DNA of 29,075 nucleotides, taken from positions 1 through 29,075 of IMG/VR virus record IMGVR_UViG_3300029179_000024; one strand, written 5' to 3'. This DNA comes from a virus (Duplodnaviria > Caudoviricetes). Positions 240-22,021 of the stretch are shown here, in pieces; the first letter of the stretch is position 1; every line of letters starts with the position of its first letter. The notes under the pieces are model-generated. The model saw only the letters and a list, made by a program, of their open reading frames with translations, was not told where the DNA came from and made no database searches. Made by a program: the position numbers and the translations under genes.

Positions 240-710
240 TTATTTCCCTCTCAACTCTGGTTCTTTATATTGCTTGCCTAACGCTTTGTAGATTTGTTCT
301 TCAGTACGTGATGCGATCAATTCATTGTTCCTATTCCACAATCCATACTGATCAAGCTTCAATCCCATCACCTTGGCTCTTTTCCTATACGAGATATTGT
401 AGCCAGCAGGTCCAGTCAAGAAAAAGAGCATTGCGCCCCAACTCCCAAGTTCTGAATGATAGATATTGAACCGCATTCCTTTGTAGTCAACATCCATCTT
501 CTTATCGCCGCCATTTATTCTTTTTACTTTCACATTGTCTTCAAATCGTTTGGATATACCGTCTAATGACTCTGATACGATAATGTCTACGTCTCCAACT
601 GTCTCTTCTTTACGTCGTAAAGATCCAGCAATTGCGTACTCTTCTGTAATGAATTTTGCAATGAACTCAATCGCAATCTCTAACGCAACATTCTGCATCC
701 GTCTCATCAT
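240..710 (-). CDS. polX: Minimal family X DNA polymerase (palm + C-terminal domain only)
   Basis: AGSLRR...GDVDIIV nucleotidyltransferase motif; FLTGP, LKLDQYGL, TEEQIYKALG..Y.EPELR C-terminal PolX signature. Confidence 0.9.
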   Translation of the reverse strand: MMRRMQNVALEIAIEFIAKFITEEYAIAGSLRRKEETVGDVDIIVSESLDGISKRFEDNVKVKRINGGDKKMDVDYKGMRFNIYHSELGSWGAMLFFLTGPAGYNISYRKRAKVMGLKLDQYGLWNRNNELIASRTEEQIYKALGKQYKEPELRGK

Positions 711-715
711 GTCTC

Positions 716-1561
716 CTATTTATCTGGTCGAGGTCGATACACATGTCCTTCAATCAACTTACCCTTACTCGAACGCTTTCTGTATTCTACCTCAACAATT
801 GTATTGAGTAACGATTTACGATTCTTCCACATCTCTACTCGATCTCTATCATCCATTCCTGAAATGTTTGCTGTCTCAATTGACCATTTCCCTGCAGCAA
901 TTGGCATCCGTACTTCTAATGAACCAAGCATCCCAACATACTTGCCTTTACCTTCTTTGAATCCAACAATCAAACAATCCATCGTTTGCTTTGGTTTGAC
1001 CTTCCACCAATACTTACTTCTCTTAAATTCATACGGGCTGTTGAGAAACTTAATGATGGAACCATCACACCCAGATGAAAGATGAAACCGGTGTACTTCT
1101 TCAAAATCTTCGTATGATATTACGTGATTGACCTTTGTCGTTTGAATCATCGGGTGTCGATGTTTTGCAAATATCTCTTCTAACCTCTGACGTCGATCAC
1201 GCAATGGTTCATCTAAACGATCTTGATGGACCAAATCAAATATCTTATATCGTCCATGCTTTTCAAGATGCTCAGTCACATCGGCTTTTGATGATCGGAA
1301 CAGTGTCATTGTCTGTTCCCAATTCTGTCCAGCAATTTCTCCATCAATGATATACTTACGCAACGGCAGACTGTTCAGGAACGTTTGGATCTCCTTTACG
1401 TTGAACAGTGGCTTCCCCTGTTTCGTTGACCACATCCCGTTTCTTCTGATGAACCGGAACCCGTCGATCTTTTCCTCGACTTGTACTCTTAGCCACTTTA
1501 TCAGCTCCCACTCCTTTAGATCGCTTAGGTTTGCTCTTCTTGCTTTCATTACGTCGATCAT
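716..1561 (-). CDS. lig: ATP-dependent DNA ligase, minimal (adenylation + OB domains)
   Basis: Motif I EEKIDGFR, III IIDGEI, IIIa YKIFDLV, IV DGSIIK, V WWKVKP, OB-fold GKGKYVGMLGSL, terminal RPDK; RBS GAGGA. Confidence 0.92.
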   Translation of the reverse strand: MIDVMKARRANLSDLKEWELIKWLRVQVEEKIDGFRFIRRNGMWSTKQGKPLFNVKEIQTFLNSLPLRKYIIDGEIAGQNWEQTMTLFRSSKADVTEHLEKHGRYKIFDLVHQDRLDEPLRDRRQRLEEIFAKHRHPMIQTTKVNHVISYEDFEEVHRFHLSSGCDGSIIKFLNSPYEFKRSKYWWKVKPKQTMDCLIVGFKEGKGKYVGMLGSLEVRMPIAAGKWSIETANISGMDDRDRVEMWKNRKSLLNTIVEVEYRKRSSKGKLIEGHVYRPRPDK

Positions 1562-10325: not shown

Positions 10326-10838
10326 TCATACTCTCCCATAGAGTTGCCAATGCCCAATGCCAATGGCATCACACACGTTATGATCAAGATCTTTCCATTC
10401 ATCTTTCGTATAGTGTTTTCCTTTACCCATATACACTGATTCAATCCGATTCTTCATCACATCCTTCGACAACTGCCCCTTCCATTGCCGCGGCAATGCA
10501 AACACGAACTTCTCTACATCATTGCGCATCCCATAGAACAATCCGCAAATGAATGACAATTTTGTAATGGAGCCTGATTCTCGCGCCATATAGCCAGCGA
10601 CTGACCAATGATCTGGCAACTCACAGGCAATAACATTGACGCCGCACTCATCTCGAACCGTATTGACTTTGGTATAGATTGAAAACGCTTTATCGTAAAA
10701 TTCTCCATCTCTCGATGCAACTTTGTCTGGACGCACCAACATTGCATCCAAGAGTTCTTTCGTCTTGGCATCGAACAATGCAATCCCACAAAAATTAATC
10801 GACGGGTCGATCGCTAACAATGTCTTTGTTTTCTTCAC
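10326..10838 (-). CDS. RuvC-like Holliday junction resolvase
   Basis: LLAIDPS...GIA, ACELP, QWKG, HNVCDAIGIG; GTG start after GGAGGAGG. Confidence 0.8.
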   Translation of the reverse strand: MKKTKTLLAIDPSINFCGIALFDAKTKELLDAMLVRPDKVASRDGEFYDKAFSIYTKVNTVRDECGVNVIACELPDHWSVAGYMARESGSITKLSFICGLFYGMRNDVEKFVFALPRQWKGQLSKDVMKNRIESVYMGKGKHYTKDEWKDLDHNVCDAIGIGHWQLYGRV

Positions 10839-11298
10839 GCTTCGCCTCCTCCTCTTTCTTCCGTTGCAATTCAAAGAACCGTTTCAAAAAGACTTCATGC
10901 CGTAACTTCAAAATCTCTATCACTAACAAATCATCCGGTGCGACCCACCCTTCTGGCTTCACCACATCAATGGTTGTTCCCCGCTTTGATTCCGCCACTG
11001 TCTTTGCGCGTTCTTTTCGCATGTTCGCATCTTGCACATGCTGCCATCCCACATTCCATGGGAGGTTCATCATGTACGCAGTACCTAACGCGACATACAC
11101 AAGATCGATCAACGCATCGAATGCTTTATAGACGTTATCTGTCATATATGCGTCAACAAACTCTTCAACCTCTTCTTTTAAAAACTCAACCCGAAACTGC
11201 ATCATATCTTTCGGCAGAAAACTTGACATCTCCGTCTGTGGAATGTCAAATTTCTCATGAAAGTGACACACATCAGCCCACATATCACAGTTTTCCAT
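10795..11298 (-). CDS. MazG-like all-alpha NTP pyrophosphohydrolase (dUTPase/dCTPase-like)
   Basis: FHEKF, LKEEVEEF, DALIDLVYVALG, V..ANM.K, KPEGWVAP; RBS GAGGTGA. Confidence 0.85.
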   Translation of the reverse strand: MENCDMWADVCHFHEKFDIPQTEMSSFLPKDMMQFRVEFLKEEVEEFVDAYMTDNVYKAFDALIDLVYVALGTAYMMNLPWNVGWQHVQDANMRKERAKTVAESKRGTTIDVVKPEGWVAPDDLLVIEILKLRHEVFLKRFFELQRKKEEEAKREENKDIVSDRPVD

Positions 11299-11329
11299 TG
11301 GGATCACCTCTACTATGAATTGTGAATAA

Positions 11330-13138
11330 TTACACTGCGACTTGCAACCGGCGAGGGTATTCGTGCTTAACCTTCTTCCACTCTTCGACTGATCCCCAAT
11401 TTTTCTTGGAGACTTTTGGTTCAACACGTAGCGGGATTTTTAATGAGACATGATCCTCCATTGCACCACAAATTTCCTTCACCACTCGATGCGCTGGCTC
11501 CTTCTCCGATACTTCAAACAACAACTCATCATGTACTTGTGCGAGTAAGTTCACATCCATGCCTTTCTGTGAGATCATCCGACTGACTCGCAGCATCGCA
11601 TACTTCATCACGTACGCTTCCGTCCCTTGAATGAGCACGTTCGGTCCTTTGTACGCCAGCTCTTGTGGAACACGATACTCTCGATTGAACTCCATCAACG
11701 GTGACTCGAACTTTAACTCAAGGATCCCAGTCCGATGGAGCTGTGAGATACATTCTCGCGTAAACTCTTTCACTGGCACGATGCTATAGTATTTCTCAAG
11801 GATCTGACTCGCTTCCAATCGTGACATATCTGCTTTCGCCTTACTATTTTGGAGTGACCGCAAGAGCTTGTTGAGCCCCATTCCAAACACGAGACCAAAC
11901 TGAATGTTCTTCGTATCTTTCCGCAGCTCCTTCTCAACGACCCCGAACAGCATCATGCAGGCGGCATCATGCGGATCCCATCCATCCCGACATTTTTGAA
12001 TCAATGTCGTCGCATTGGCAAAATGAAAGAAGATCATCATTTGTAATGCTTTATAATCGACCGCGAGCATGAAGTACCCGGGCCGAGGACGGAATGCCAT
12101 GCGGGCCAGCTTCGGTGCTTTCGCTGTGCGAGATTCGTCAGGTCGTGGGATCGTCTGGATCAACTCCGCTGACATGCGGCCAGTTCTCGCTCCCGAGCCG
12201 AATGTAAAGAAATGTGCATACGGGAATTCTTTTGTCGTATACCGTCGCCACAACGGATCGAAATATGTGCCTTTCTGTTTTGTCAAGAACCGATACAGCA
12301 ACTGCAACGCCACAATCTTGTGGGAATCGTATTGTGCGAGTACTTTGGCTTCAGTAATGGGATGGCCCCGTTCATTCTCTGGAAGTGGGACGCCCATCTT
12401 CTTCATCACATATGCGACCTGCTTCGGTGACGATGGATTGAACTCCGGCAGCTTGATCCCATTCTGCTTCAAGACTGCTTGGATGTCAGCATAGCAGGTC
12501 TCAGCTTCTTTCCCATAGCGTGCCGCTTGCTGTCGTGCAAACTTCCGATCCACCATCATCCCAATTGCTTGCATCTTTAGGATGACACGAGCGACCTTCT
12601 TCTCTGTCTCATAAATCCGTTGAAAGCGTTTGATCGGCTCACGAAACAAGAACCACAATTTCTGCGTGAACACCGCATCTTCTGTCGCATACGGTTTCAT
12701 GACAAACCGAGGGATTTGTGAGTAATCAAACTCAATCCCCAACTTCTTCGCTTTCTTCTTGTACTTGGCTTTGTATTTCGAGAGCTTCTTCGCTTCTTTG
12801 ATATCCGCTTTGAGATACTTCTTTGCCATTGGCTTCAAACCTTTGCGTGAGGCAAAGTTCTCATCCAACAACGTACCCGCAATGAGCGGATCTTCAAATG
12901 GTCCACGACAACGAATGTTCAGATGTTTGACGACGTGTGCGTCAACGGTGTATGGGAATGCAATCTTCGTGATGGTTGGATCTTCTAGCAGTTGGCGAAG
13001 TTTCGCGACCTCCTTTGGTTTATGACAATTGTACAGTTCCGTCTGAAGCTGCCAATCACATGTGGTTGCGATGAATGGTTCTTTGCGATTGTTGAACTCT
13101 GTATCGAAGGCTACGCAACGATCAGGATCGTTTGCCAT
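11330..13138 (-). CDS. polA: Family A DNA polymerase with 3'-5' exonuclease domain
   Basis: ExoI AFDTE, ExoIII YATEDA, FNPSSPKQV, TGRMS, motif A DYKALQ, motif B RKDTKNIQFGLVFG, IQGT, motif C VHDEL. Confidence 0.93.
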   Translation of the reverse strand: MANDPDRCVAFDTEFNNRKEPFIATTCDWQLQTELYNCHKPKEVAKLRQLLEDPTITKIAFPYTVDAHVVKHLNIRCRGPFEDPLIAGTLLDENFASRKGLKPMAKKYLKADIKEAKKLSKYKAKYKKKAKKLGIEFDYSQIPRFVMKPYATEDAVFTQKLWFLFREPIKRFQRIYETEKKVARVILKMQAIGMMVDRKFARQQAARYGKEAETCYADIQAVLKQNGIKLPEFNPSSPKQVAYVMKKMGVPLPENERGHPITEAKVLAQYDSHKIVALQLLYRFLTKQKGTYFDPLWRRYTTKEFPYAHFFTFGSGARTGRMSAELIQTIPRPDESRTAKAPKLARMAFRPRPGYFMLAVDYKALQMMIFFHFANATTLIQKCRDGWDPHDAACMMLFGVVEKELRKDTKNIQFGLVFGMGLNKLLRSLQNSKAKADMSRLEASQILEKYYSIVPVKEFTRECISQLHRTGILELKFESPLMEFNREYRVPQELAYKGPNVLIQGTEAYVMKYAMLRVSRMISQKGMDVNLLAQVHDELLFEVSEKEPAHRVVKEICGAMEDHVSLKIPLRVEPKVSKKNWGSVEEWKKVKHEYPRRLQVAV

Positions 13139-13148
13139 CTCGTCTTAA

Positions 13149-13301
13149 TTATCCTCCATGATCAATGATCCCTTGTCGATCCATCTCATTATAGCAGCGC
13201 CGACAAACTGCTATCTTATTCAACAGCTTCATTTTCACCCACTGCAAGATGCTCACTTTTGTTTCGAACATTCCGCATGCAATGCACGTGACTTTAAGCA
13301 T
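13149..13301 (-). CDS. Small Zn-ribbon protein (50 aa)
   Basis: Read manually: MLKVTCIACGMF...AVCRRCYNEM; fills the gap between the deaminase and PolA. Confidence 0.6.
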   Translation of the reverse strand: MLKVTCIACGMFETKVSILQWVKMKLLNKIAVCRRCYNEMDRQGIIDHGG

Positions 13302-13779
13302 AGGTCACTCTCCGTAACTCCATCGCGTCTTCTCGAACAAAAAAGAAATCTTCATTCAATTGTTGTAAATACTGCTCCCGCCAATCATCTTTGTAGTCAT
13401 GCAAATAATAGATCTTCCGTACTCCAATCTGCAATAAGACCTTCAAACAATCGAGGCATGGTTGATACGTCGAATAGCACTCGATCCATCCCGTTTCTTT
13501 TGATCCACGCACTTGACATTTGAGGACCGCATTGATTTCCGCATGGATGGTGCGAATGCACGTCGTGCCCGTTGTCGTTGACCCTTTCCGATCCGTCTTC
13601 ACGAGCACATGATCGCTCTCATTGCAATGATAATCATTATGCACACTGCCCACATAGCCATGCCCAACAATCTGGCGTTGATGCACAAGGATGCACCCAA
13701 CTTTTGCCCGACACGTCGAGGCTTCCGCAATTTGCTCCGCGATCTTCATCCAAAATTGCCGTGTGATCTTTAGGTTCAT
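13294..13779 (-). CDS. dCMP deaminase (Zn-dependent, ComEB/DCTD type)
   Basis: STC..KVGCILV, GYVG, HAEINAV, QPCLDC, GVRKIYY. Confidence 0.88.
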   Translation of the reverse strand: MNLKITRQFWMKIAEQIAEASTCRAKVGCILVHQRQIVGHGYVGSVHNDYHCNESDHVLVKTDRKGSTTTGTTCIRTIHAEINAVLKCQVRGSKETGWIECYSTYQPCLDCLKVLLQIGVRKIYYLHDYKDDWREQYLQQLNEDFFFVREDAMELRRVTYA

Positions 13780-13780
13780 A

Positions 13781-13975
13781 TTATTCGATGTCTTTCCGCG
13801 TAAAAAAGAGATACGCTTTTCCAACATCATATTCTACACAGGCACCATGTAATGTGAGATCTGGCGCCATACCAAGTTTCGCACCGAACGTATACTTATA
13901 GTAACCTGCAAGGCCAACTGATTCTTTCGAGAGACAGACATATCGTCGACTAAAGTTTGTGCCAGTAATCATCAA
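13781..13975 (-). CDS. Hypothetical protein (64 aa)
   Basis: GAGGAGG RBS; tiles with neighbours. Confidence 0.6.
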   Translation of the reverse strand: MMITGTNFSRRYVCLSKESVGLAGYYKYTFGAKLGMAPDLTLHGACVEYDVGKAYLFFTRKDIE

Positions 13976-13982
13976 CGCCTCC

Positions 13983-14267
13983 TCAACATGGTATTGGATT
14001 CATGCGTTCACCATCAGTATCTTTATATTTGATCCACCGCCCAGGTGGGTCGCCTTCTCCATTCCATTTCGAACAATCTTCTAACGCCTCTCGTAACGTT
14101 GCATAATGATACACGCCCGTAAAGCCAACATGCTGCATGCCTATACATAATCCATACGTAAACAGATACGGTGCCACCCCGATCCATTGCTTATTTGGCA
14201 GCTTCCGAAGGTCCCGGTACCCCAGCGCTACCATACTGTGAACGAACTCCTTGTCTTTCTTGGTCAT
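13983..14267 (-). CDS. Hypothetical protein (94 aa)
   Basis: RBS GAGGT before MTKKDK; W.GEGDPPG.WIK C-terminus. Confidence 0.65.
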   Translation of the reverse strand: MTKKDKEFVHSMVALGYRDLRKLPNKQWIGVAPYLFTYGLCIGMQHVGFTGVYHYATLREALEDCSKWNGEGDPPGRWIKYKDTDGERMNPIPC

Positions 14268-14436
14268 GCGATACCTCTTTACTTTTATCTGACATCGTTG
14301 CGCCAATGACCACCCACCAGATACCTGTTGCAAACAATCCCAACCCAGGATGCATCCACCACATGCCCACTGTCATACACACGAATCCAAACAATGCCGC
14401 GATTTCTCCCCAGTTGATATCCATCTTCTTCATCAT
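14191..14436 (-). CDS. Small membrane protein (two hydrophobic segments)
   Basis: IAALFGFVCMTVGMWW and LGLFATGIWWVVIGA; ATGA coupling to the upstream gene. Confidence 0.6.
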   Translation of the reverse strand: MMKKMDINWGEIAALFGFVCMTVGMWWMHPGLGLFATGIWWVVIGATMSDKSKEVSHDQERQGVRSQYGSAGVPGPSEAAK

Positions 14437-15428
14437 CTCCCAACCTCCTGGACAATGTTATTCACGGTATCGACCACATGCGACCATGATGGCGTCACTC
14501 TCAGAATCTGTTTTTGCTGATGTGCTGCAAGTTCTTGCAACGCCTTCGCTGACATCTCCTCTATGTCCTCAATGTTCACATGCATGAGTGTCGCCAACTC
14601 TCCCCATTCTTTCTGCTCAGCGTACATTACATTCTGCGCAATCATACCATGACAATAGCGTGCCCGCCACCAACCGCTCCCAGACGCTGAGTATTTTGGC
14701 AGCAACATCCCATGTGATTCAGCATATCGCTGCACGAGCTCATGTTCAGGAATGAAATTCTTTTTCGTATACCATTGAATTGGCCATGTTGCGCCCAACC
14801 GACTATGCCATTTCTCATAATTATCCAATGCACCATACATCCACTGAAACTTCTTTCGTTTAGGAATTGCGATCGGTAGCTTCTTCCATTGTTTCAAATA
14901 AAACGCTGTCGGATTGAACTCATTGAGTGATGTGAATGGTGTTCCTTTAATGATAATATCGCGATCACCCCACGGGAAGAATGGCCCTAACAGGTTGGAC
15001 GTATGACGGAACATTTCATTACGACAGCGTTCGAGTTGCCGACGATCTTTCATCACTCGTTCTTTCGATAATCGACTGCCAGTATTATTGTTCAATACAA
15101 ACTCACGGAAGAGGTTTTCATCCATCAACATACGAATGGTCTTATTTGCTTTCCAATCGTTCACTAAGTAGAGCACATGCTCCCCTTGTGATGCCAACAA
15201 CGTCTCATAGAGGTAATGACAGCTGTACTCACTGATCGTGCCCAACCCAAGAATGAGCAAATCAAACTGCTTGAAGATCTCTTGCTCATTATATTCCAAT
15301 GCTCTCCACTCGACATCATGCTTCGCCGCCTTTAACGCATGATAGAGCGCATTGATCGACGTATTATAGTCTCGTCGTCGAGAGCCATTGGCTTGCATGC
15401 GTGTCATCCCCGTCAACAATACTCTCAT
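14433..15428 (-). CDS. GT-B fold DNA glycosyltransferase, T4 beta-glucosyltransferase-like
   Basis: Pattern match to T4 BGT recalled from memory: FDLLILG~YDRLIVV, VLYLVNDWK~IYYLFTDIR (catalytic Asp), IPEHELVQRY~IPMNMVSEKN, WRARY~TLRVW. Confidence 0.65.
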   Translation of the reverse strand: MRVLLTGMTRMQANGSRRRDYNTSINALYHALKAAKHDVEWRALEYNEQEIFKQFDLLILGLGTISEYSCHYLYETLLASQGEHVLYLVNDWKANKTIRMLMDENLFREFVLNNNTGSRLSKERVMKDRRQLERCRNEMFRHTSNLLGPFFPWGDRDIIIKGTPFTSLNEFNPTAFYLKQWKKLPIAIPKRKKFQWMYGALDNYEKWHSRLGATWPIQWYTKKNFIPEHELVQRYAESHGMLLPKYSASGSGWWRARYCHGMIAQNVMYAEQKEWGELATLMHVNIEDIEEMSAKALQELAAHQQKQILRVTPSWSHVVDTVNNIVQEVGR

Positions 15429-16021
15429 TTCGTTCCCTTTCTCATCATATGCACACTTAACCGCGACTTATCCAGTTGCGACTCCATCGAGAAATCGGTA
15501 ATGCTTCCAGGTTTGAGTCGCCGAATCTTCGCCTCATCCGTTAACCATTTCACCAGCATTTTGAGATTGCCAACCATGCGTGTCAACATATCTCGCTTGC
15601 GATAGACAGCCACCATATTCAGCGTATGTTTGACGCGTTTGAATCTGACCAACACAAGGCATGGATTATGCTCCCCAAAATTGTCGCCATCAAACGATGG
15701 GTCCCACATACAGATGAGCTTGTTCGGTTGCACACGATGCTCATCAAACTGATGGTACCCAAAATACTTCACCGCTCGATGCATATACCCAAAATCTTTC
15801 CGCTTTCCATTGTTGCCGTATCGGCGAAGCTTCTCCTCTGTATACGAACGAATGGTATCCTTATGATGCCATGGATACTGGACTTCATGCCACTCCATCA
15901 ACGATTTCGTCAAATGGAATGGCTGAAACTCTAGCACGACACTCTCGCCAGGTATCACGAGCTCAAGTGCTTGCATGAATTTTCCGGGACTCTGGAGACA
16001 ACTCGCTGGTAACACCCGCAT
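15425..16021 (-). CDS. Truncated, divergent thymidylate-synthase-fold protein
   Basis: GY..R, MWDP, NPCLVLVRF, LNMVAVYRKRD, GNL, KPGSITDFS; lacks the H-x-Y motif. Confidence 0.7.
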   Translation of the reverse strand: MRVLPASCLQSPGKFMQALELVIPGESVVLEFQPFHLTKSLMEWHEVQYPWHHKDTIRSYTEEKLRRYGNNGKRKDFGYMHRAVKYFGYHQFDEHRVQPNKLICMWDPSFDGDNFGEHNPCLVLVRFKRVKHTLNMVAVYRKRDMLTRMVGNLKMLVKWLTDEAKIRRLKPGSITDFSMESQLDKSRLSVHMMRKGTK

Positions 16022-16024
16022 ACG

Positions 16025-16906
16025 TTACCTCATAATCTTGTTGCGATGCGTCACGAACAACTCTTCCATTGCCATAACCTTATGCATCGAAATCGTATCG
16101 AGACATAGCACGTTCCCCAATTCTACCGTCGACAATCCCCCTCTAAACATCTGCTTCGCTCGCATCATCGCATCTCGTAACGTTAATGTCTTGAACTCGA
16201 TGAAGTGCTCACTCTGTTCTTCCTCTGTCTTGACTAATCCCCAGTCGTGCACTTCCTCAACATCACTCTCATAGATGTGCAATGAGCTGATGTTATACAC
16301 GATCTCAATGGCGTCAATCTCCATCCCCGCATCGACCAGCTGGTTCTTCATTAAGATCGCCAGTGCTTGCCAATGCAATGCATCAATCGAGTATCCCGTC
16401 ACAAAATCCGATGATCGCGACGTCACAATCAAAAACAACTTCCGGTTCCGATACATGAACTGCAACAACGTATTACACGGCAAATGTGTGCGGGTTGTCG
16501 TTTTGCCATCATCTTCATTATATATTGACACGCACGCCTGGCGCGTATGGATATCCCGTAGGATCCTGTCGATGGCGACAGCCAGCTGGTGTTGCATCCG
16601 ATAGCCATAAGCCCCATTGATCTTTCCATCAGCATCAACATAATGTTTCATCGCGGCATTATAGCTCACAATACTCTCTGCATCATTCCGCCCCGACAAC
16701 ATGTAGCATAACTCTGCCAGCACAAACTTGATTGGGACCACTCGATGATGCGGACACGAAAAGACTGACACTGAATTGAATTCAATGTCGATACATGACT
16801 GATCAGCAATCATCTCATACGCCACTGGCATCTCACGACATTCAATGTCAACTGGTGATGCCAACACGATCCGCGTCATATGCGGATACAACTCTGCAAA
16901 TCTCAT
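16025..16906 (-). CDS. dCMP hydroxymethylase-like thymidylate-synthase-fold enzyme
   Basis: AEL..MLSG, GAYGYR, TRQA, LPCNTLLQF, RSSDFVTGYSID (Asp at the dUMP/dCMP specificity position, as in T4 gp42), SLHIYE. Confidence 0.85.
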   Translation of the reverse strand: MRFAELYPHMTRIVLASPVDIECREMPVAYEMIADQSCIDIEFNSVSVFSCPHHRVVPIKFVLAELCYMLSGRNDAESIVSYNAAMKHYVDADGKINGAYGYRMQHQLAVAIDRILRDIHTRQACVSIYNEDDGKTTTRTHLPCNTLLQFMYRNRKLFLIVTSRSSDFVTGYSIDALHWQALAILMKNQLVDAGMEIDAIEIVYNISSLHIYESDVEEVHDWGLVKTEEEQSEHFIEFKTLTLRDAMMRAKQMFRGGLSTVELGNVLCLDTISMHKVMAMEELFVTHRNKIMR

Positions 16907-16917
16907 GCATCCCTCCC

Positions 16918-18135
16918 TTAGTCTGAAATGACCATCTTCAACTCCCGAAAGAACTCATCTGAAATTCCCATCCGCAAATAATACGCTGGATGATACACTG
17001 TCTTGTAGTGAAACTTCATTCGCTTCAATTGTTCAGCTGCGACCTTTCCTAAGGCAATGATCTGTGCCTTCGGATTCTGCTTCACAATGCGTCCAAGTTC
17101 TCCATCCAATGATTGCACACATTCAAGATTCGTAATCGTTTGTTTACTCACATACAGACTCAGCTTATTCTCCACTGGACAGCATTTTACTGCATTCGTC
17201 ATATAGTATTTCACCGGATGAATGCACAACCGATCGAATGTCACTTGTAAGAGGTTGCCGCTACGATCATCATAAAAGGGGATACCGAGCTTTCCACACC
17301 CGTCTTGGCCCGGTGCTTCACCCACGAAAATGAAGTCAATATTATTGACGGCGCCGCATGGACCAGTCGGACGATGATGGTTTTGCGCGAACTTTGCGAT
17401 CGATGCATGGTCAACACCGAGCTTGCAGTCGCCTGCATTGTAGTCTTGGCAAGTATATGTGCCATCGATGAATCCTCTCTTCGGCTCCCATAACGTTTGA
17501 TCCGCATTAAAGAAAGTATGACTATACGAATCGGTAATGGTATGTTGATACGGCACCATCTTGACCCATGCTTTCACTCGACTTGTGATATACTTATTGC
17601 GTGCATCAAACGTTGGGTAATTCGCACAGTTGACATACAGTGTGCGTTTGACACCGAGTGATGCCACCACATCGACAAACCGTGTCGCGATCTTCTTGGC
17701 TTCCGTCCGGCGTTGATATTTCTTTTCTTCATCGCCTTTCTTTTCTATATTCAAACGTTGATACACTTCGCCATCAGTATAGAGTACGATGATACATACT
17801 CGATGCTTCACTGATTTGATCTTCTCAAGTAATGCAGTATGATATTTCTCATGATCGTACTGCCCTGTCCGATACATTGGACCATAGACGTCTTCACCAA
17901 TGATCGACCGATCCCAAATCTCTAACCCATCCTCAACCTCTATCGCTCGAATCACATTCTTGAGATAGTTGAGCTGATACGTCAACGCAGCTTTCCCTTC
18001 ACCGAGCGGTGGTCCACAATGCACAACACGAGGCTGTGTCGCATTCTGCATATACGTTAATTCTTTTTGCAGATGTTTTGCAAGGTAGGACTTCCCGAGA
18101 TTGTCTGGACCTTCGATAATGATCACTTGCTTCAC
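16918..18135 (-). CDS. Fusion: P-loop dNMP kinase (N-terminal) + family-4-like uracil-DNA glycosylase (C-terminal)
   Basis: IIIEGPDNLGKS and WDRS...E.VYG; then FVGEAPG, GIPF...SG.LL, TNAVKC.P, IIALGKVA, YHPAY; GTG start after AAGGAGG. Confidence 0.85.
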   Translation of the reverse strand: MKQVIIIEGPDNLGKSYLAKHLQKELTYMQNATQPRVVHCGPPLGEGKAALTYQLNYLKNVIRAIEVEDGLEIWDRSIIGEDVYGPMYRTGQYDHEKYHTALLEKIKSVKHRVCIIVLYTDGEVYQRLNIEKKGDEEKKYQRRTEAKKIATRFVDVVASLGVKRTLYVNCANYPTFDARNKYITSRVKAWVKMVPYQHTITDSYSHTFFNADQTLWEPKRGFIDGTYTCQDYNAGDCKLGVDHASIAKFAQNHHRPTGPCGAVNNIDFIFVGEAPGQDGCGKLGIPFYDDRSGNLLQVTFDRLCIHPVKYYMTNAVKCCPVENKLSLYVSKQTITNLECVQSLDGELGRIVKQNPKAQIIALGKVAAEQLKRMKFHYKTVYHPAYYLRMGISDEFFRELKMVISD

Positions 18136-18179
18136 ACGATGCCTCCTTGAAAGTGAAATGATCTCTCGTAACATCAATC

Positions 18180-18233
18180 ATTATATCACAAGATTTAATG
18201 GTTGACATCAATAATAGATCAATTTACACTTTC
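18180..18233 (-). promoter_or_regulatory. Promoter of the modification operon, with a repeated 16-bp box
   Basis: Extended -10 TGTGATATAAT (18180-18190); upstream GAAAGTGTAAATTGAT identical to 26788-26803. Confidence 0.6.
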
Positions 18234-18247
18234 AATCGGCTCTTCGC

Positions 18248-19048
18248 TTATTTTTTCTTGATCACTGTTGCGAGTGTCTTTTGCAACTGATCTTCCGTCA
18301 CTGCATATTGCGACAAGAGCTCTCTCGTCAGATACCACCAGGCCTTCAAGAGATCTTCTGTCTCCACATTCTTATGCTCATGACGTGCAATGTACTTCAC
18401 CGCATTGCCCAGGTTAAAATTCAGCTGCCAGGCCTCAATCGCGTCAATGACTTCAACCGCACCGGCATTATAATGTGAGGGATGATGTATCGTGTCGAAT
18501 GTCCCAAATGCCTCTGACGCGACCTTCTTCTTTTTCTCATCCAATGGTGGCTGTTGCTCACCAAGTGTTGTTTGATCTGATGGATAGCCGACCAATGCAC
18601 CTTTGCCATTACATGCTTCGCACTCGGCTATCTTATGTCGTACACCATCTCCATACCGGCCTTTTCCTTTACATTTTGGACATTGTATGTACTGCAACAT
18701 TTCCGTCATTCCTGGTGATGTCATGTCTGATGCTCCTTTTGTTGTGATATTCATGCCCCCTCGACCCTCGCATATTGGACAACACGCGCCATTCACAATG
18801 TGATTCCCGAGATATCCTTTTCCATGACAGTTCGTACATTGTACATACTGTATCGCATCTGTACGCCCAGATTGGACCGTCATTGTCACATCTCCTATTT
18901 CAATACTTGTTTGAATACTCCCACTTCCTCTGCACCTTGCACATTCCGACGCTTCCATATACTCACCGCTCCCATGCCATCCTTTTCCCTTACATTCAGG
19001 ACATTGTTCAAACCATGGGATCCCAGTATTATGCATGCCAGTCACCAT
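18248..19048 (-). CDS. DnaJ-type Zn-finger repeats fused to a DUF3310-like (T7 gp1.7-related) domain
   Basis: Six CxxCxGxG motifs; C-terminal HPSHY...EVID.I...FNLGNAVKYIAR..HK...EDLLKAWWYL. Confidence 0.8.
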   Translation of the reverse strand: MVTGMHNTGIPWFEQCPECKGKGWHGSGEYMEASECARCRGSGSIQTSIEIGDVTMTVQSGRTDAIQYVQCTNCHGKGYLGNHIVNGACCPICEGRGGMNITTKGASDMTSPGMTEMLQYIQCPKCKGKGRYGDGVRHKIAECEACNGKGALVGYPSDQTTLGEQQPPLDEKKKKVASEAFGTFDTIHHPSHYNAGAVEVIDAIEAWQLNFNLGNAVKYIARHEHKNVETEDLLKAWWYLTRELLSQYAVTEDQLQKTLATVIKKK

Positions 19049-20264: not shown

Positions 20265-20921
20265 TTACCGCATCTTTTTGAGATTTTCTGCCTGTGTCGC
20301 TCCAGGTTCGATATCTTCATACAAGACGGGAATCTTCTGCTGAAACTCTTCAAGCAACGGGATCGCGACTTGTCGCATTTGTGGATGCGCCTCTCGCGTC
20401 GTTCGCATGAGAAAGAAGTGTCGCCAATTGCGCAAGTTGTATGTGACAATAATTCTTGATGCTAACGCATTTGGAAACACTGCTCGTGCAATTTGCGGTG
20501 TTGTCCCAATGTCGATGAGCTGTTTATAGGCATCTTCTGCATATGAAATGCTATTCATCAATATCACTGTTTGGTCAGCCGTCAACTCTAGAGGAATAAC
20601 AAACGTCGGTGGCATTTTCTTTTCATAATTCACAAACCGTGTGGATTCTTGGGTATACGCACCAAGACGATGTCGCACCCATTCATGTGTAATTCCTCTA
20701 TCAACGATCGCATCAACTGACACTGACGCATGTTCAGTAATCGACCAATCGCCTTTTCCTACGACAACTGCGCGGATGAACCGCTCCCATGATTGTTCCG
20801 TCTGGGCATCTTCAGAGCGATGTGAGATGCGCCCACACCATTCAACATGCCGTAAGAGCACAATCCCATCAGCCACTGTCGGCACATTCAACATCTTTGC
20901 AGATGGATGAATAATTTCCAT
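20265..20921 (-). CDS. thyX: Flavin-dependent thymidylate synthase
   Basis: SITEH, R...HE.VRHR-x7-S (RHRLGAYTQESTR), ARAVFP, NLRNWRHF..MR, AHPQMR. Confidence 0.93.
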   Translation of the reverse strand: MEIIHPSAKMLNVPTVADGIVLLRHVEWCGRISHRSEDAQTEQSWERFIRAVVVGKGDWSITEHASVSVDAIVDRGITHEWVRHRLGAYTQESTRFVNYEKKMPPTFVIPLELTADQTVILMNSISYAEDAYKQLIDIGTTPQIARAVFPNALASRIIVTYNLRNWRHFFLMRTTREAHPQMRQVAIPLLEEFQQKIPVLYEDIEPGATQAENLKKMR

Positions 20922-21303: not shown

Positions 21304-21578
21304 TAGTGATTCCCCAATTTGACATCCACCACTCGTTCTCCCGCAGCCTCAATGACTCGTCTCCCATGCTCATCAAGTACGTGCTGACAACAATCAAGCA
21401 ATGCATGCCCAAGTTGTGTCGCTGTTGTTAATGACAATGTGTATTCTCTTGACACGAGTGCTCGTTCACCATCAACAATCGGTCGCATGGTCATAATCAC
21501 TGTTGCGGGCGCTTTGAACCCAAGATCGATCTGTAACCGTTGTTCATGGACTTTTTCTTGTTCCACAGTGCCCTCCAT
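21303..21578 (-). CDS. Hypothetical protein (91 aa)
   Basis: GGGAG RBS; TAATG coupling. Confidence 0.6.
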   Translation of the reverse strand: MEGTVEQEKVHEQRLQIDLGFKAPATVIMTMRPIVDGERALVSREYTLSLTTATQLGHALLDCCQHVLDEHGRRVIEAAGERVVDVKLGNH

Positions 21579-22021
21579 TAACTCCCATGCTGCGTGATAC
21601 GATCAGTCAACTCTTCTAGCTGATCATAGCCATAGACGCCGTCAAAGAGGCCATACATCGCATCCCATTCACCATTGACGAGCATCCCAAACACATACAC
21701 ATGTTTCTTTTTCCCTTTGGCATAGCCGGCTTCAATGTGTGCTGAATTCCCACTTGGGAGCACTAGGATGACGATATCAGCCTTTTCGAGTTGCTCTTTA
21801 TTAAGCGCACAAATCCGTTGGATAAGGTCATTGCGTAATGCCGACTGCGCTGTTAAATATTTCGCTTTCTCATCATTCCAAATGATGGTGCTTAACTGAC
21901 TCGCTTCTTCCACGATATCACAAAAGACATATGCGGTATGCCCACAGCTGCGTAACCGCTGGCCAACCATCCGGCAAATGAGTTTTTGTTTTCGTGAGCC
22001 TGCTACATAGACATTCATCAT
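21578..22021 (-). CDS. Nucleoside 2-deoxyribosyltransferase-like / nucleotide N-hydrolase
   Basis: VYVAGS, ADIVILVLPSGNSAHIEAGYAKG (catalytic Glu motif). Confidence 0.78.
   Translation of the reverse strand: MMNVYVAGSRKQKLICRMVGQRLRSCGHTAYVFCDIVEEASQLSTIIWNDEKAKYLTAQSALRNDLIQRICALNKEQLEKADIVILVLPSGNSAHIEAGYAKGKKKHVYVFGMLVNGEWDAMYGLFDGVYGYDQLEELTDRITQHGS

What the first reader, a model, noticed from the sequence alone, without database searches (positions are those of the whole stretch)
13294..18233. Candidate new pyrimidine hypermodification operon (kinase-UDG, two TS-fold genes, glycosyltransferase, dCMP deaminase) feeding an altered PolA
Seen: one promoter followed by closely packed genes for a kinase-UDG fusion, TS-fold #1 (Asp specificity residue), TS-fold #2 (Asn) and a BGT-like enzyme, then dCMP deaminase, PolA and a MazG-like pyrophosphatase; ThyX lies just upstream. 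Established: T4 makes glucosyl-5hmC using dCMP hydroxymethylase, dNMP kinase, dCTPase, dCMP deaminase and BGT. Inference: this virus rebuilds a similar pathway on a non-T4 chassis (PolA + MCM) with two extra parts, a second TS-fold enzyme and a glycosylase. It may therefore make a sugar-modified cytosine with a different linkage, or modify both C and T, and proofread the result. ThyX would supply ordinary dTMP and free both TS-fold genes for other chemistry.
Basis: partly seen in the sequence, partly recalled or inferred. Interest (0 to 1): 0.85.

Follow-up and report, generated by a model that had tools for sequence, protein, structure and literature searches.

The report
Phage cytosine-sugaring cassette with extra TS
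An uncultured virus lineage carries a conserved gene run that likely replaces cytosine with a sugar-coated hydroxymethylcytosine, much as phage T4 does, plus an optional, uncharacterised thymidylate-synthase-like gene predicted to act on uracil, whose product is untested.

Summary
14433-15428 models as GT-B with T4 beta-glucosyltransferase as top PDB match. 16025-16906 (TS1) has the dCMP-type Asp177 and keeps Asp169, so it fails the 5-hydroxy-C synthase signature. 15425-16021 (TS2) is TS-fold with Asn177. 16918-18177 joins an RB69-gp45-like kinase to a family-4-like UDG. Gene order holds in all 6 of 10 related loci that span it. The core (Asp177 TS, deaminase, PRA-PH, PolA) is a published signature of cytosine-modified phages, and phage DSL-LC01 carries the same kinase-UDG, TS and GT families, so the PolA chassis is not new. 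Best reading: T4-like glycosyl-5hmC, likely; nothing was assayed. TS2 is missing in 3 of 9 informative loci, under both GT subtypes, so it is an add-on. Unusual features: His/Asn/Ser at TS1 position 143; a separate TS2 family with catalytic residues kept but no 3'-OH-binding His; a UDG lacking the thymine-blocking Glu; PolA with Gln at the steric gate in 8 of 8. The scan holds no look-alike of this locus, though it noted multi-TS phage clusters on other DNA.

The parts
18180..18208 (-). Sigma70-type promoter-like site with extended -10; about 45 nt before the likely kinase-UDG start
   Evidence: 10/12, TG present; 31 sites vs 19.5 expected; same extended -10 in L006 and L013; function not shown
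16918..18177 (-). P-loop nucleotide kinase (RB69 gp45-like) fused to a family-4-like uracil-DNA glycosylase; likely start GTG 18135; no Glu at the E47 position
   Evidence: PHROG 761, PF03167; hhalign to RB69p045 prob 90.9; PDB 1ui0 E 3.8e-7 with alignment; TIGR00758 below cut-off
16025..16906 (-). TS1: dCMP-type thymidylate-synthase homolog, predicted dCMP hydroxymethylase (E. coli numbering H143, C146, N147, D169, D177)
   Evidence: best PDB matches MilA 1.7e-14 and T4 gp42 2e-12; column counts over 91 homologs
15425..16021 (-). TS2: short, basic, methanogen-type-related TS-fold protein with the dUMP-type Asn177; optional in the clade; product unknown
   Evidence: absent in L008, L010, L011
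14433..15428 (-). GT-B glycosyltransferase, closest solved fold T4 beta-glucosyltransferase; invariant D91 in the position of BGT D100
   Evidence: family of 39 hits
13983..14436 (-). Two small ORFs (81 aa membrane-like; 116 aa) inserted between GT and deaminase; not conserved in position, probably not part of the pathway
13294..13830 (-). dCMP deaminase, HAE and PCxxC motifs intact; likely start 13779
   Evidence: PF00383; motifs in 7 of 7 sequences
11330..13138 (-). Family A DNA polymerase with 3'-5' exonuclease; Gln at the steric-gate Glu position and Phe at the O-helix Tyr position
10795..11427 (-). MazG/PRA-PH-type nucleotide pyrophosphohydrolase; dCTP versus dUTP preference not determined
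   Evidence: PF01503, PHROG 671; conserved behind PolA
20265..20921 (-). ThyX, flavin-dependent dTMP synthase, intact RHRx7S motif
   Evidence: TIGR02170 above cut-off, 100.4 vs 87.9; upstream in 4 of 4 related loci that reach that far

Best explanation
The cassette likely makes a glycosylated 5-hydroxymethylcytosine genome by the T4 logic, and the second TS-fold gene is an optional add-on predicted to act on a uracil nucleotide. Inferred steps: TS1 converts dCMP to 5hm-dCMP; the kinase domain phosphorylates it; the MazG-like enzyme turns dCTP (or dUTP) back to the monophosphate; the PolA incorporates 5hm-dCTP; the BGT-like enzyme adds a sugar on DNA, probably from a host NDP-sugar, since no sugar-nucleotide gene lies in the window. 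The deaminase and ThyX supply dTMP. The UDG, whose C5 pocket lacks the thymine-blocking Glu, would remove U and probably 5hmU from deamination, with the phage's pol-beta-like protein and ligase closing the gap. For TS2 my lead guess is partial 5-hydroxymethyl-U synthesis (about 0.3 on its own). Shown: folds, residues, gene order, patchy presence of TS2. Not shown: any product.
For: TS1: C146, N147, D169 and D177 in 91 of 91 homologs; position 143 is H 69, N 10, D 7, S 5 and never Leu (about 27 of the 69 are near-copies of one lineage). D177 marks dCMP use, and Leu143 versus Asp/Glu marks methyl versus hydroxymethyl (PMC13326640). Best PDB matches are MilA and T4 gp42. GT: top 6 Foldseek PDB hits are T4 BGT; D91 in 39 of 39; a wider-family member sits inside the arabinosyl-5hoC-type cluster of Morganella phage Rgz1. 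The kinase is homologous to RB69 gp45. Order kinase-UDG, TS1, (TS2), GT, deaminase, PolA, MazG in 6 of 6 loci that span it, out of 10 fetched; the other 4 are short and none contradicts. TS + deaminase + PRA-PH + PolA is the published neighbourhood of cytosine-modified contigs. TS2 is absent with both GT subtypes and nested among TS2 carriers in the GT and PolA trees, so the GT's acceptor does not depend on TS2. UDG: E41, F54, N80 and H155 equivalents kept, E47 not.
Against: Position 143 is not the canonical Asp/Glu in the window or in 84 of 91 homologs, so hydroxymethylation is an extrapolation. In one screen, 5 of 7 tested Asp177 TS genes next to deaminases made 5-methyl-dCMP. The GT has no sequence-level match to T4 BGT, AGT or RB69 gp46/47 (hhalign prob under 1; broad HMM E 0.0035 for BGT), and His replaces BGT's E272 in 38 of 39 (by-eye register), so the donor sugar is open. 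The MazG substrate is untested. A UDG able to cut 5hmU would work against a TS2 that makes 5hmU. E47A lowers Tth UDG activity 100-fold, so the domain may be weak.
Confidence: 0.6

Rival explanations
1. Both pyrimidines are modified: TS2 makes 5hm-dUMP from the deaminase's dUMP, so part of T is 5hmU (possibly sugared) alongside glycosyl-5hmC. This extends the best explanation rather than replacing its core.
For: TS2 keeps C146 in 37 of 38, R166 37, D169 37, N177 38, Y94 38; position 143 is mostly polar or basic, Leu in 2 of 38. ThyX already supplies dTMP. TS2 is wedged between TS1 and GT with -4 and +3 nt junctions.
Against: No Asp/Glu at 143 in any of 38. Ser167 is kept in only 3 of 38 and no His at the H207 column, so free dUMP binding is doubtful. 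An intact ThyX would compete for dUMP. TS2 is missing in 3 of 9 loci with no matching change of GT subtype.
Confidence: 0.25
2. TS2 acts on uracil inside DNA (or another 3'-blocked nucleotide), using the TS cysteine chemistry to modify or trap it after replication.
For: Catalytic core kept while the 3'-OH-binding His and Ser167 are lost; 34 K+R versus 21 D+E; invariant extra Arg at R143 and R148. The role of H207 is recalled, and the register beyond G197 is my count.
Against: I know of no TS-fold enzyme that modifies a polymer (recalled, not searched exhaustively). The loops at 83-89 and 107-118 are poorly modelled.
Confidence: 0.12
3. TS2 is an ordinary, redundant dTMP synthase of methanogen type, and only cytosine is modified.
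For: Closest curated model is TIGR03283; structural neighbours are archaeal-type TS clusters; distant hits are PF00303 proteins; it is dispensable, as a backup would be.
Against: Score 35.8 against a cut-off of 174.55; loss of S167 and H207 and no Leu143; a separate family of 23 clusters at E under 1e-10.
Confidence: 0.2
4. TS1 makes 5-methyl-dCMP (Xp12 type), the deaminase turns part of it into thymidine nucleotide, and the GT works on something else.
For: D177 without D/E143; 5 of 7 tested deaminase-linked TS genes made 5mdCMP (bioRxiv 2024.12.05.627091).
Against: The BGT-fold GT needs a hydroxyl acceptor and follows TS1 in all 8 related loci lineages and the window where both are covered; ThyX makes the 5mC-to-T route unnecessary; the most divergent TS1 members carry Asp143.
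Confidence: 0.13

Closest known systems
T4 glucosyl-5hmC pathway (gp42, gp1, gp56, Cd, BGT)
   Same: dCMP-type TS homolog, BGT-fold GT, kinase, all-alpha pyrophosphatase, dCMP deaminase
   Different: His rather than Asp at 143; kinase of the RB69 gp45 type fused to UDG; ThyX instead of ThyA; PolA; extra TS2; GT only 12% identical to BGT
Glycosyl-5-hydroxycytosine clusters of RB69, DLP3, RL38J1 (PMC13326640)
   Same: TS homolog, GT and thymidylate-kinase-like gene side by side; kinase homologous to RB69 gp45; wider GT family occurs in such a cluster (Rgz1)
   Different: TS1 keeps D169 (91 of 91), not the D169N signature; no NDP-arabinose or UDP-Galf genes in the window
Actinomycetia phage DSL-LC01 (OQ999401) replication block
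   Same: kinase with a UDG-like tail (by eye), TS with D177, deaminase, PolA, RuvC, helicase, same GT family (28% identity), MazG-like gene
   Different: canonical D143 TS, UDP-galactopyranose mutase and a second GT-like gene; no TS2 in the 19 kb fetched; its DNA chemistry was not found in my one search
MetaGPA cytosine-modified metavirome contigs and 5mC-selective deaminases (PMC8670742; bioRxiv 2024.12.05.627091)
   Same: TS(D177) + dCMP deaminase + PRA-PH + PolA neighbourhood
   Different: no second Asn177 TS or kinase-UDG fusion in the passages I read
SP15/YerA41/Carin-5 T-hypermodified phages with UDG-PolA (PMC13697223, PMC12686479)
   Same: UDG, deaminase, TS homolog, PolA and GTs in one replication block
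   Different: there UDG is fused to PolA and the target is T; here the conserved TS is cytosine-type

Membership tests
dCMP hydroxymethylase (T4 gp42/MilA type), TS1 | catalytic Cys146 and Asp177 | tested here: met
   91 of 91; alignment to 1b49 and 5b6d
dCMP hydroxymethylase (T4 gp42/MilA type), TS1 | Asp/Glu at position 143 | tested here: not met
   His in the window; H 69, N 10, D 7, S 5 of 91
dCMP hydroxymethylase (T4 gp42/MilA type), TS1 | makes 5hm-dCMP | not testable with these tools
   needs LC-MS
5hodCMP synthase (RB69 gp48 type), TS1 | D169N | tested here: not met
   Asp in 91 of 91; signature from PMC13326640
TS superfamily, TS2 | TS fold with Cys146, Arg166, Asp169, Asn177 | tested here: met
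ThyA / methanogen-type dTMP synthase, TS2 | curated score, Ser167, His207 | tested here: not met
   35.8 vs 174.55; Ser 3 of 38, no His in that column
dUMP hydroxymethylase (SPO1 gp29 type), TS2 | Asn177 with acidic 143 | tested here: not met
   Asn 38 of 38 but no D/E at 143
T4 BGT-like DNA glycosyltransferase | GT-B fold closest to BGT, catalytic Asp after strand 4 | tested here: met
   D91 39 of 39, register by eye
T4 BGT-like DNA glycosyltransferase | sequence homology to BGT; Glu272 | tested here: inconclusive
   hhalign prob 0.3; HMM E 0.0035; His at that place in 38 of 39
T4 BGT-like DNA glycosyltransferase | transfers glucose to 5hmC in DNA | not testable with these tools
   needs an assay
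Family 4 UDG | GE(A/G)PG motif, F54, N80, H155 | tested here: met
   pocket residues from PMC5387724
Family 4 UDG | Glu47 that blocks thymine; curated cut-off | tested here: not met
   Gly/Cys in 5 of 6 aligned, Pro/Asn in L010; 39 vs 125.3
Family A DNA polymerase | motif A and C Asp; steric-gate Glu710 | tested here: inconclusive
   catalytic Asp kept; Gln for Glu in 8 of 8; role of E710 from PMC9324360
ThyX | TIGR02170 cut-off and RHRx7S | tested here: met

The most novel reading that the evidence does not exclude
TS2 defines a new branch of the TS fold that modifies uracil, as nucleotide or directly in DNA, so that this virus carries glycosylated 5hmC and a modified thymine substitute in one genome, replicated by a PolA with a changed steric gate and policed by a UDG retuned to 5-substituted uracil.
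Probability: 0.27. Interest if true: 0.85.

Novelty: new variant of a known kind. Interest (0 to 1): 0.55.

Why it matters
It gives a compact six-gene test set for three open points: what a His143 dCMP-type TS makes, which sugar an uncharacterised BGT-like family (also in Gordonia, Aeromonas and Providencia phages) puts on DNA, and what a separate Asn177 TS family does. Natural relatives with and without TS2 supply the control. A genome with both pyrimidines modified, or a TS-fold enzyme acting on DNA, would be new chemistry. A 5hmC glycosyltransferase or 5hmU glycosylase would be a useful sequencing reagent.

Full report
Observation. The window is a 29,075-base virus record whose coding genes lie on the minus strand. 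Read in coding direction the finding holds a kinase-UDG fusion (16918-18177), TS1 (16025-16906), TS2 (15425-16021), a GT (14433-15428), two small unrelated ORFs, a dCMP deaminase (13294-13830), PolA (11330-13138) and a PRA-PH/MazG-type gene (10795-11427). ThyX lies at 20265-20921. The first four genes are joined by 11, 3 and -4 nt. A promoter-like site at 18208-18180 is among the five best of 31 matches, against 19.5 expected; the same extended -10 recurs in 2 of 5 relatives. One transcript through to PolA is not shown.

Conservation. The GT has 39 hits among 759 candidates, 37 of them (including itself) at 48% identity or more. Ten related loci were fetched (L006-L015); the metagenome scan covered 29 of 64 parts. 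All 6 that span the block (L006, L007, L010, L011 with the kinase cut, L013, L014) keep the order kinase-UDG, TS1, (TS2), GT, deaminase, PolA, MazG-like, RuvC, SNF2; the 4 short ones agree as far as they go. L018-L020 are the same or near copies of L010 and were not counted again. TS2 is present in the window, L006, L007, L013, L014 and L015 and absent in L008, L010 and L011: 6 of 9 informative; L009 and L012 are too short. In three fragments of the L010 type the TS2 profile finds only TS1, but these are 9-19% complete. In the GT tree L010/L011 group with TS2 carriers L013-L015 (98/97), while L008 falls outside that group with the window, L006 and L007; in the PolA tree the L010 group joins L006/L007 (91/99, under the 95 mark). 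TS2 is thus missing under both GT subtypes, most simply by two losses; gain by exchange is not excluded.

TS1. Its profile matches MilA (1.7e-14) and T4 gp42 (2e-12) before ThyA. In 91 homologs (92 hits less one partial) C146, N147, D169 and D177 are invariant; position 143 is His 69, Asn 10, Asp 7, Ser 5. PMC13326640 (abstract, introduction, sections 24-26, 28, 29 read) gives the rules: D177 for dCMP, Leu143 for methylation versus Asp/Glu for hydroxymethylation, D169N for 5-hydroxylation. TS1 is therefore cytosine-type, not a 5hodCMP synthase, and off-rule at 143. A polar residue there and the neighbouring GT make 5hm-dCMP the likely product; this is inference.

GT. The model (pLDDT 92.9) matches T4 BGT in the top 6 PDB rows and unnamed viral proteins at TM 0.80-0.85. 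Sequence links to BGT, AGT and RB69 gp46/47 are absent or marginal. D91 is invariant and sits where BGT has its catalytic D100; His stands at BGT's E272 in 38 of 39 (register by eye; the role of E272 is recalled). Distant family members occur in DSL-LC01, Gordonia phages, Aeromonas Tulanevirus, C48C1, Erwinia FBB1 and Providencia/Morganella phages. They sit beside UDP-galactopyranose mutase in DSL-LC01, C48C1 and 50AhydR13PP and inside an arabinose/TS/kinase cluster in Rgz1. No such donor gene was found among the 41 window ORFs scanned, so the sugar is open.

TS2. It has 18 hits among 29 candidates and a profile reaches 78 clusters, 23 at E under 1e-10. Two near members and one more pass the Pfam TS cut-off and most distant hits are PF00303. 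The broad profile hits only TS chains in the 60 PDB rows shown (best 1.1e-4); the model matches TS structures; the nearest curated model is methanogen-type TS, far below cut-off. Over 38 sequences the catalytic set is kept (Y94 38, C146 37, R166 37, D169 37, N177 38), Ser167 is rare (3), position 143 is never acidic, and the H207 column has no His. The protein is basic (34 K+R, 21 D+E). It looks like an active uracil-type enzyme with a rebuilt sugar-phosphate site. I could not get gene context for the distant members.

Kinase-UDG, deaminase, PolA. The kinase is homologous to RB69 gp45 and to the DSL-LC01 kinase, whose tail shows UDG-like motifs by eye without a Pfam hit. The UDG matches family 4 structures. 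Of the pocket residues in PMC5387724 (passages) it keeps E41, F54, N80 and H155 but not E47, which blocks thymine; activity on 5hmU is my inference. A pol-beta-like gene (240-710) and a ligase (716-1561) could finish repair. PolA has Gln at E710 in 8 of 8 clade members and Phe at Y766 in the 7 of 8 where the motif was read; E710 is the ribonucleotide gate (PMC9324360, passages). These changes hold with or without TS2, and a link to modified nucleotides is untested.

Mechanism. Likely dCTP to dCMP (MazG-like), to 5hm-dCMP (TS1), to the triphosphate (kinase plus host), into DNA (PolA), then sugared (GT); dCMP to dUMP to dTMP (deaminase, ThyX); UDG clears deamination products. Confidence 0.6. Rival readings of TS2 are 5hm-dUMP synthase (0.25-0.3), backup dTMP synthase (0.2) and DNA-level enzyme (0.12); these concern the add-on and overlap with the core reading. 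TS1 as a methylase gets 0.13.

What is known. In bioRxiv 2024.12.05.627091 (passages) TS, MafB19-deam, PRA-PH, PolA and PolA-exo are the top five domains near dCMP deaminases, and 70% of deaminases on cytosine-modified contigs have a TS nearby. PMC8670742 (passages) reports the same co-occurrence. GT-B hits lie by a TS in about 28% of contigs (bioRxiv 2023.12.21.572611, passages). DSL-LC01 has the core with a canonical D143 TS. T-hypermodified UDG-PolA phages (PMC13697223, PMC12686479; passages) differ in target. PMC8056088 and PMC8307549 (passages) added nothing decisive. Eight literature searches showed no paper describing an Asp177 TS, an Asn177 TS and a BGT-like gene in one run; subscription papers and Iyer 2013 were not available. 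The scan's own index has no look-alike but lists other multi-TS or TS-UDG cassettes.

Verdict. A real, conserved cassette; a new variant of the known TS-plus-GT cytosine pathway, with one uncharacterised optional enzyme and three off-rule active sites. Interest 0.55; 0.85 if TS2 proves to modify uracil (probability about 0.27).

Noticed in passing
G001 (L006, L026-L029), 70,516 bases: The closest long relative is classed with inverted terminal repeats. Among 44 ORFs of 110 aa or more scanned outside L006, none matched a capsid or portal family; the only terminase hit was a secondary match on an FtsK ATPase. The virion block has almost no PHROG or Pfam hits. It may be an unusual virion type; many GT homolog contigs are 64-71 kb.
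   Followed up: partly
L028:8794-13233: G001 carries a separate sugar block (rhamnosyl O-methyltransferase-like, hexapeptide acyltransferase, weak GT, NDP-sugar epimerase/dehydratase) among likely virion genes; it could glycosylate the particle or feed the DNA GT.
   Followed up: no
window 21578-22021 (-): Nucleoside deoxyribosyltransferase-like gene, conserved upstream of ThyX in L006, L007, L010 and L014; could hydrolyse unwanted modified dNMPs (MilB/DNPH1-like role recalled, untested).
   Followed up: no
window 240-1561 (-): A 156-aa pol-beta palm/thumb protein next to an ATP-dependent ligase, also in G001; a minimal repair pair.
   Followed up: partly
window 18202-18230 (+): A 10/12 promoter-like site on the opposite strand overlaps the kinase-UDG promoter and points into the DUF3310 gene as antisense.
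   Followed up: no
window 18248-19048 (-): DUF3310 domain preceded by a variable number of CxxCxGxG zinc-finger repeats; always just upstream of the kinase-UDG in relatives (115-266 aa).
   Followed up: no
window 20265-20921 (-): The window's ThyX (218 aa) is only about 28% identical to the ThyX at the same place in relatives (270-310 aa), while flanking genes are far closer; suggests replacement in place.
   Followed up: no
L005:4649-7918; L004:6586-10033; L003:8001-11292: Aeromonas Tulanevirus, C48C1 and Gordonia Sixama-type phages carry this BGT-like family, the first two beside UDP-galactopyranose mutase; candidates for undescribed DNA glycosylation in cultured phages.
   Followed up: partly
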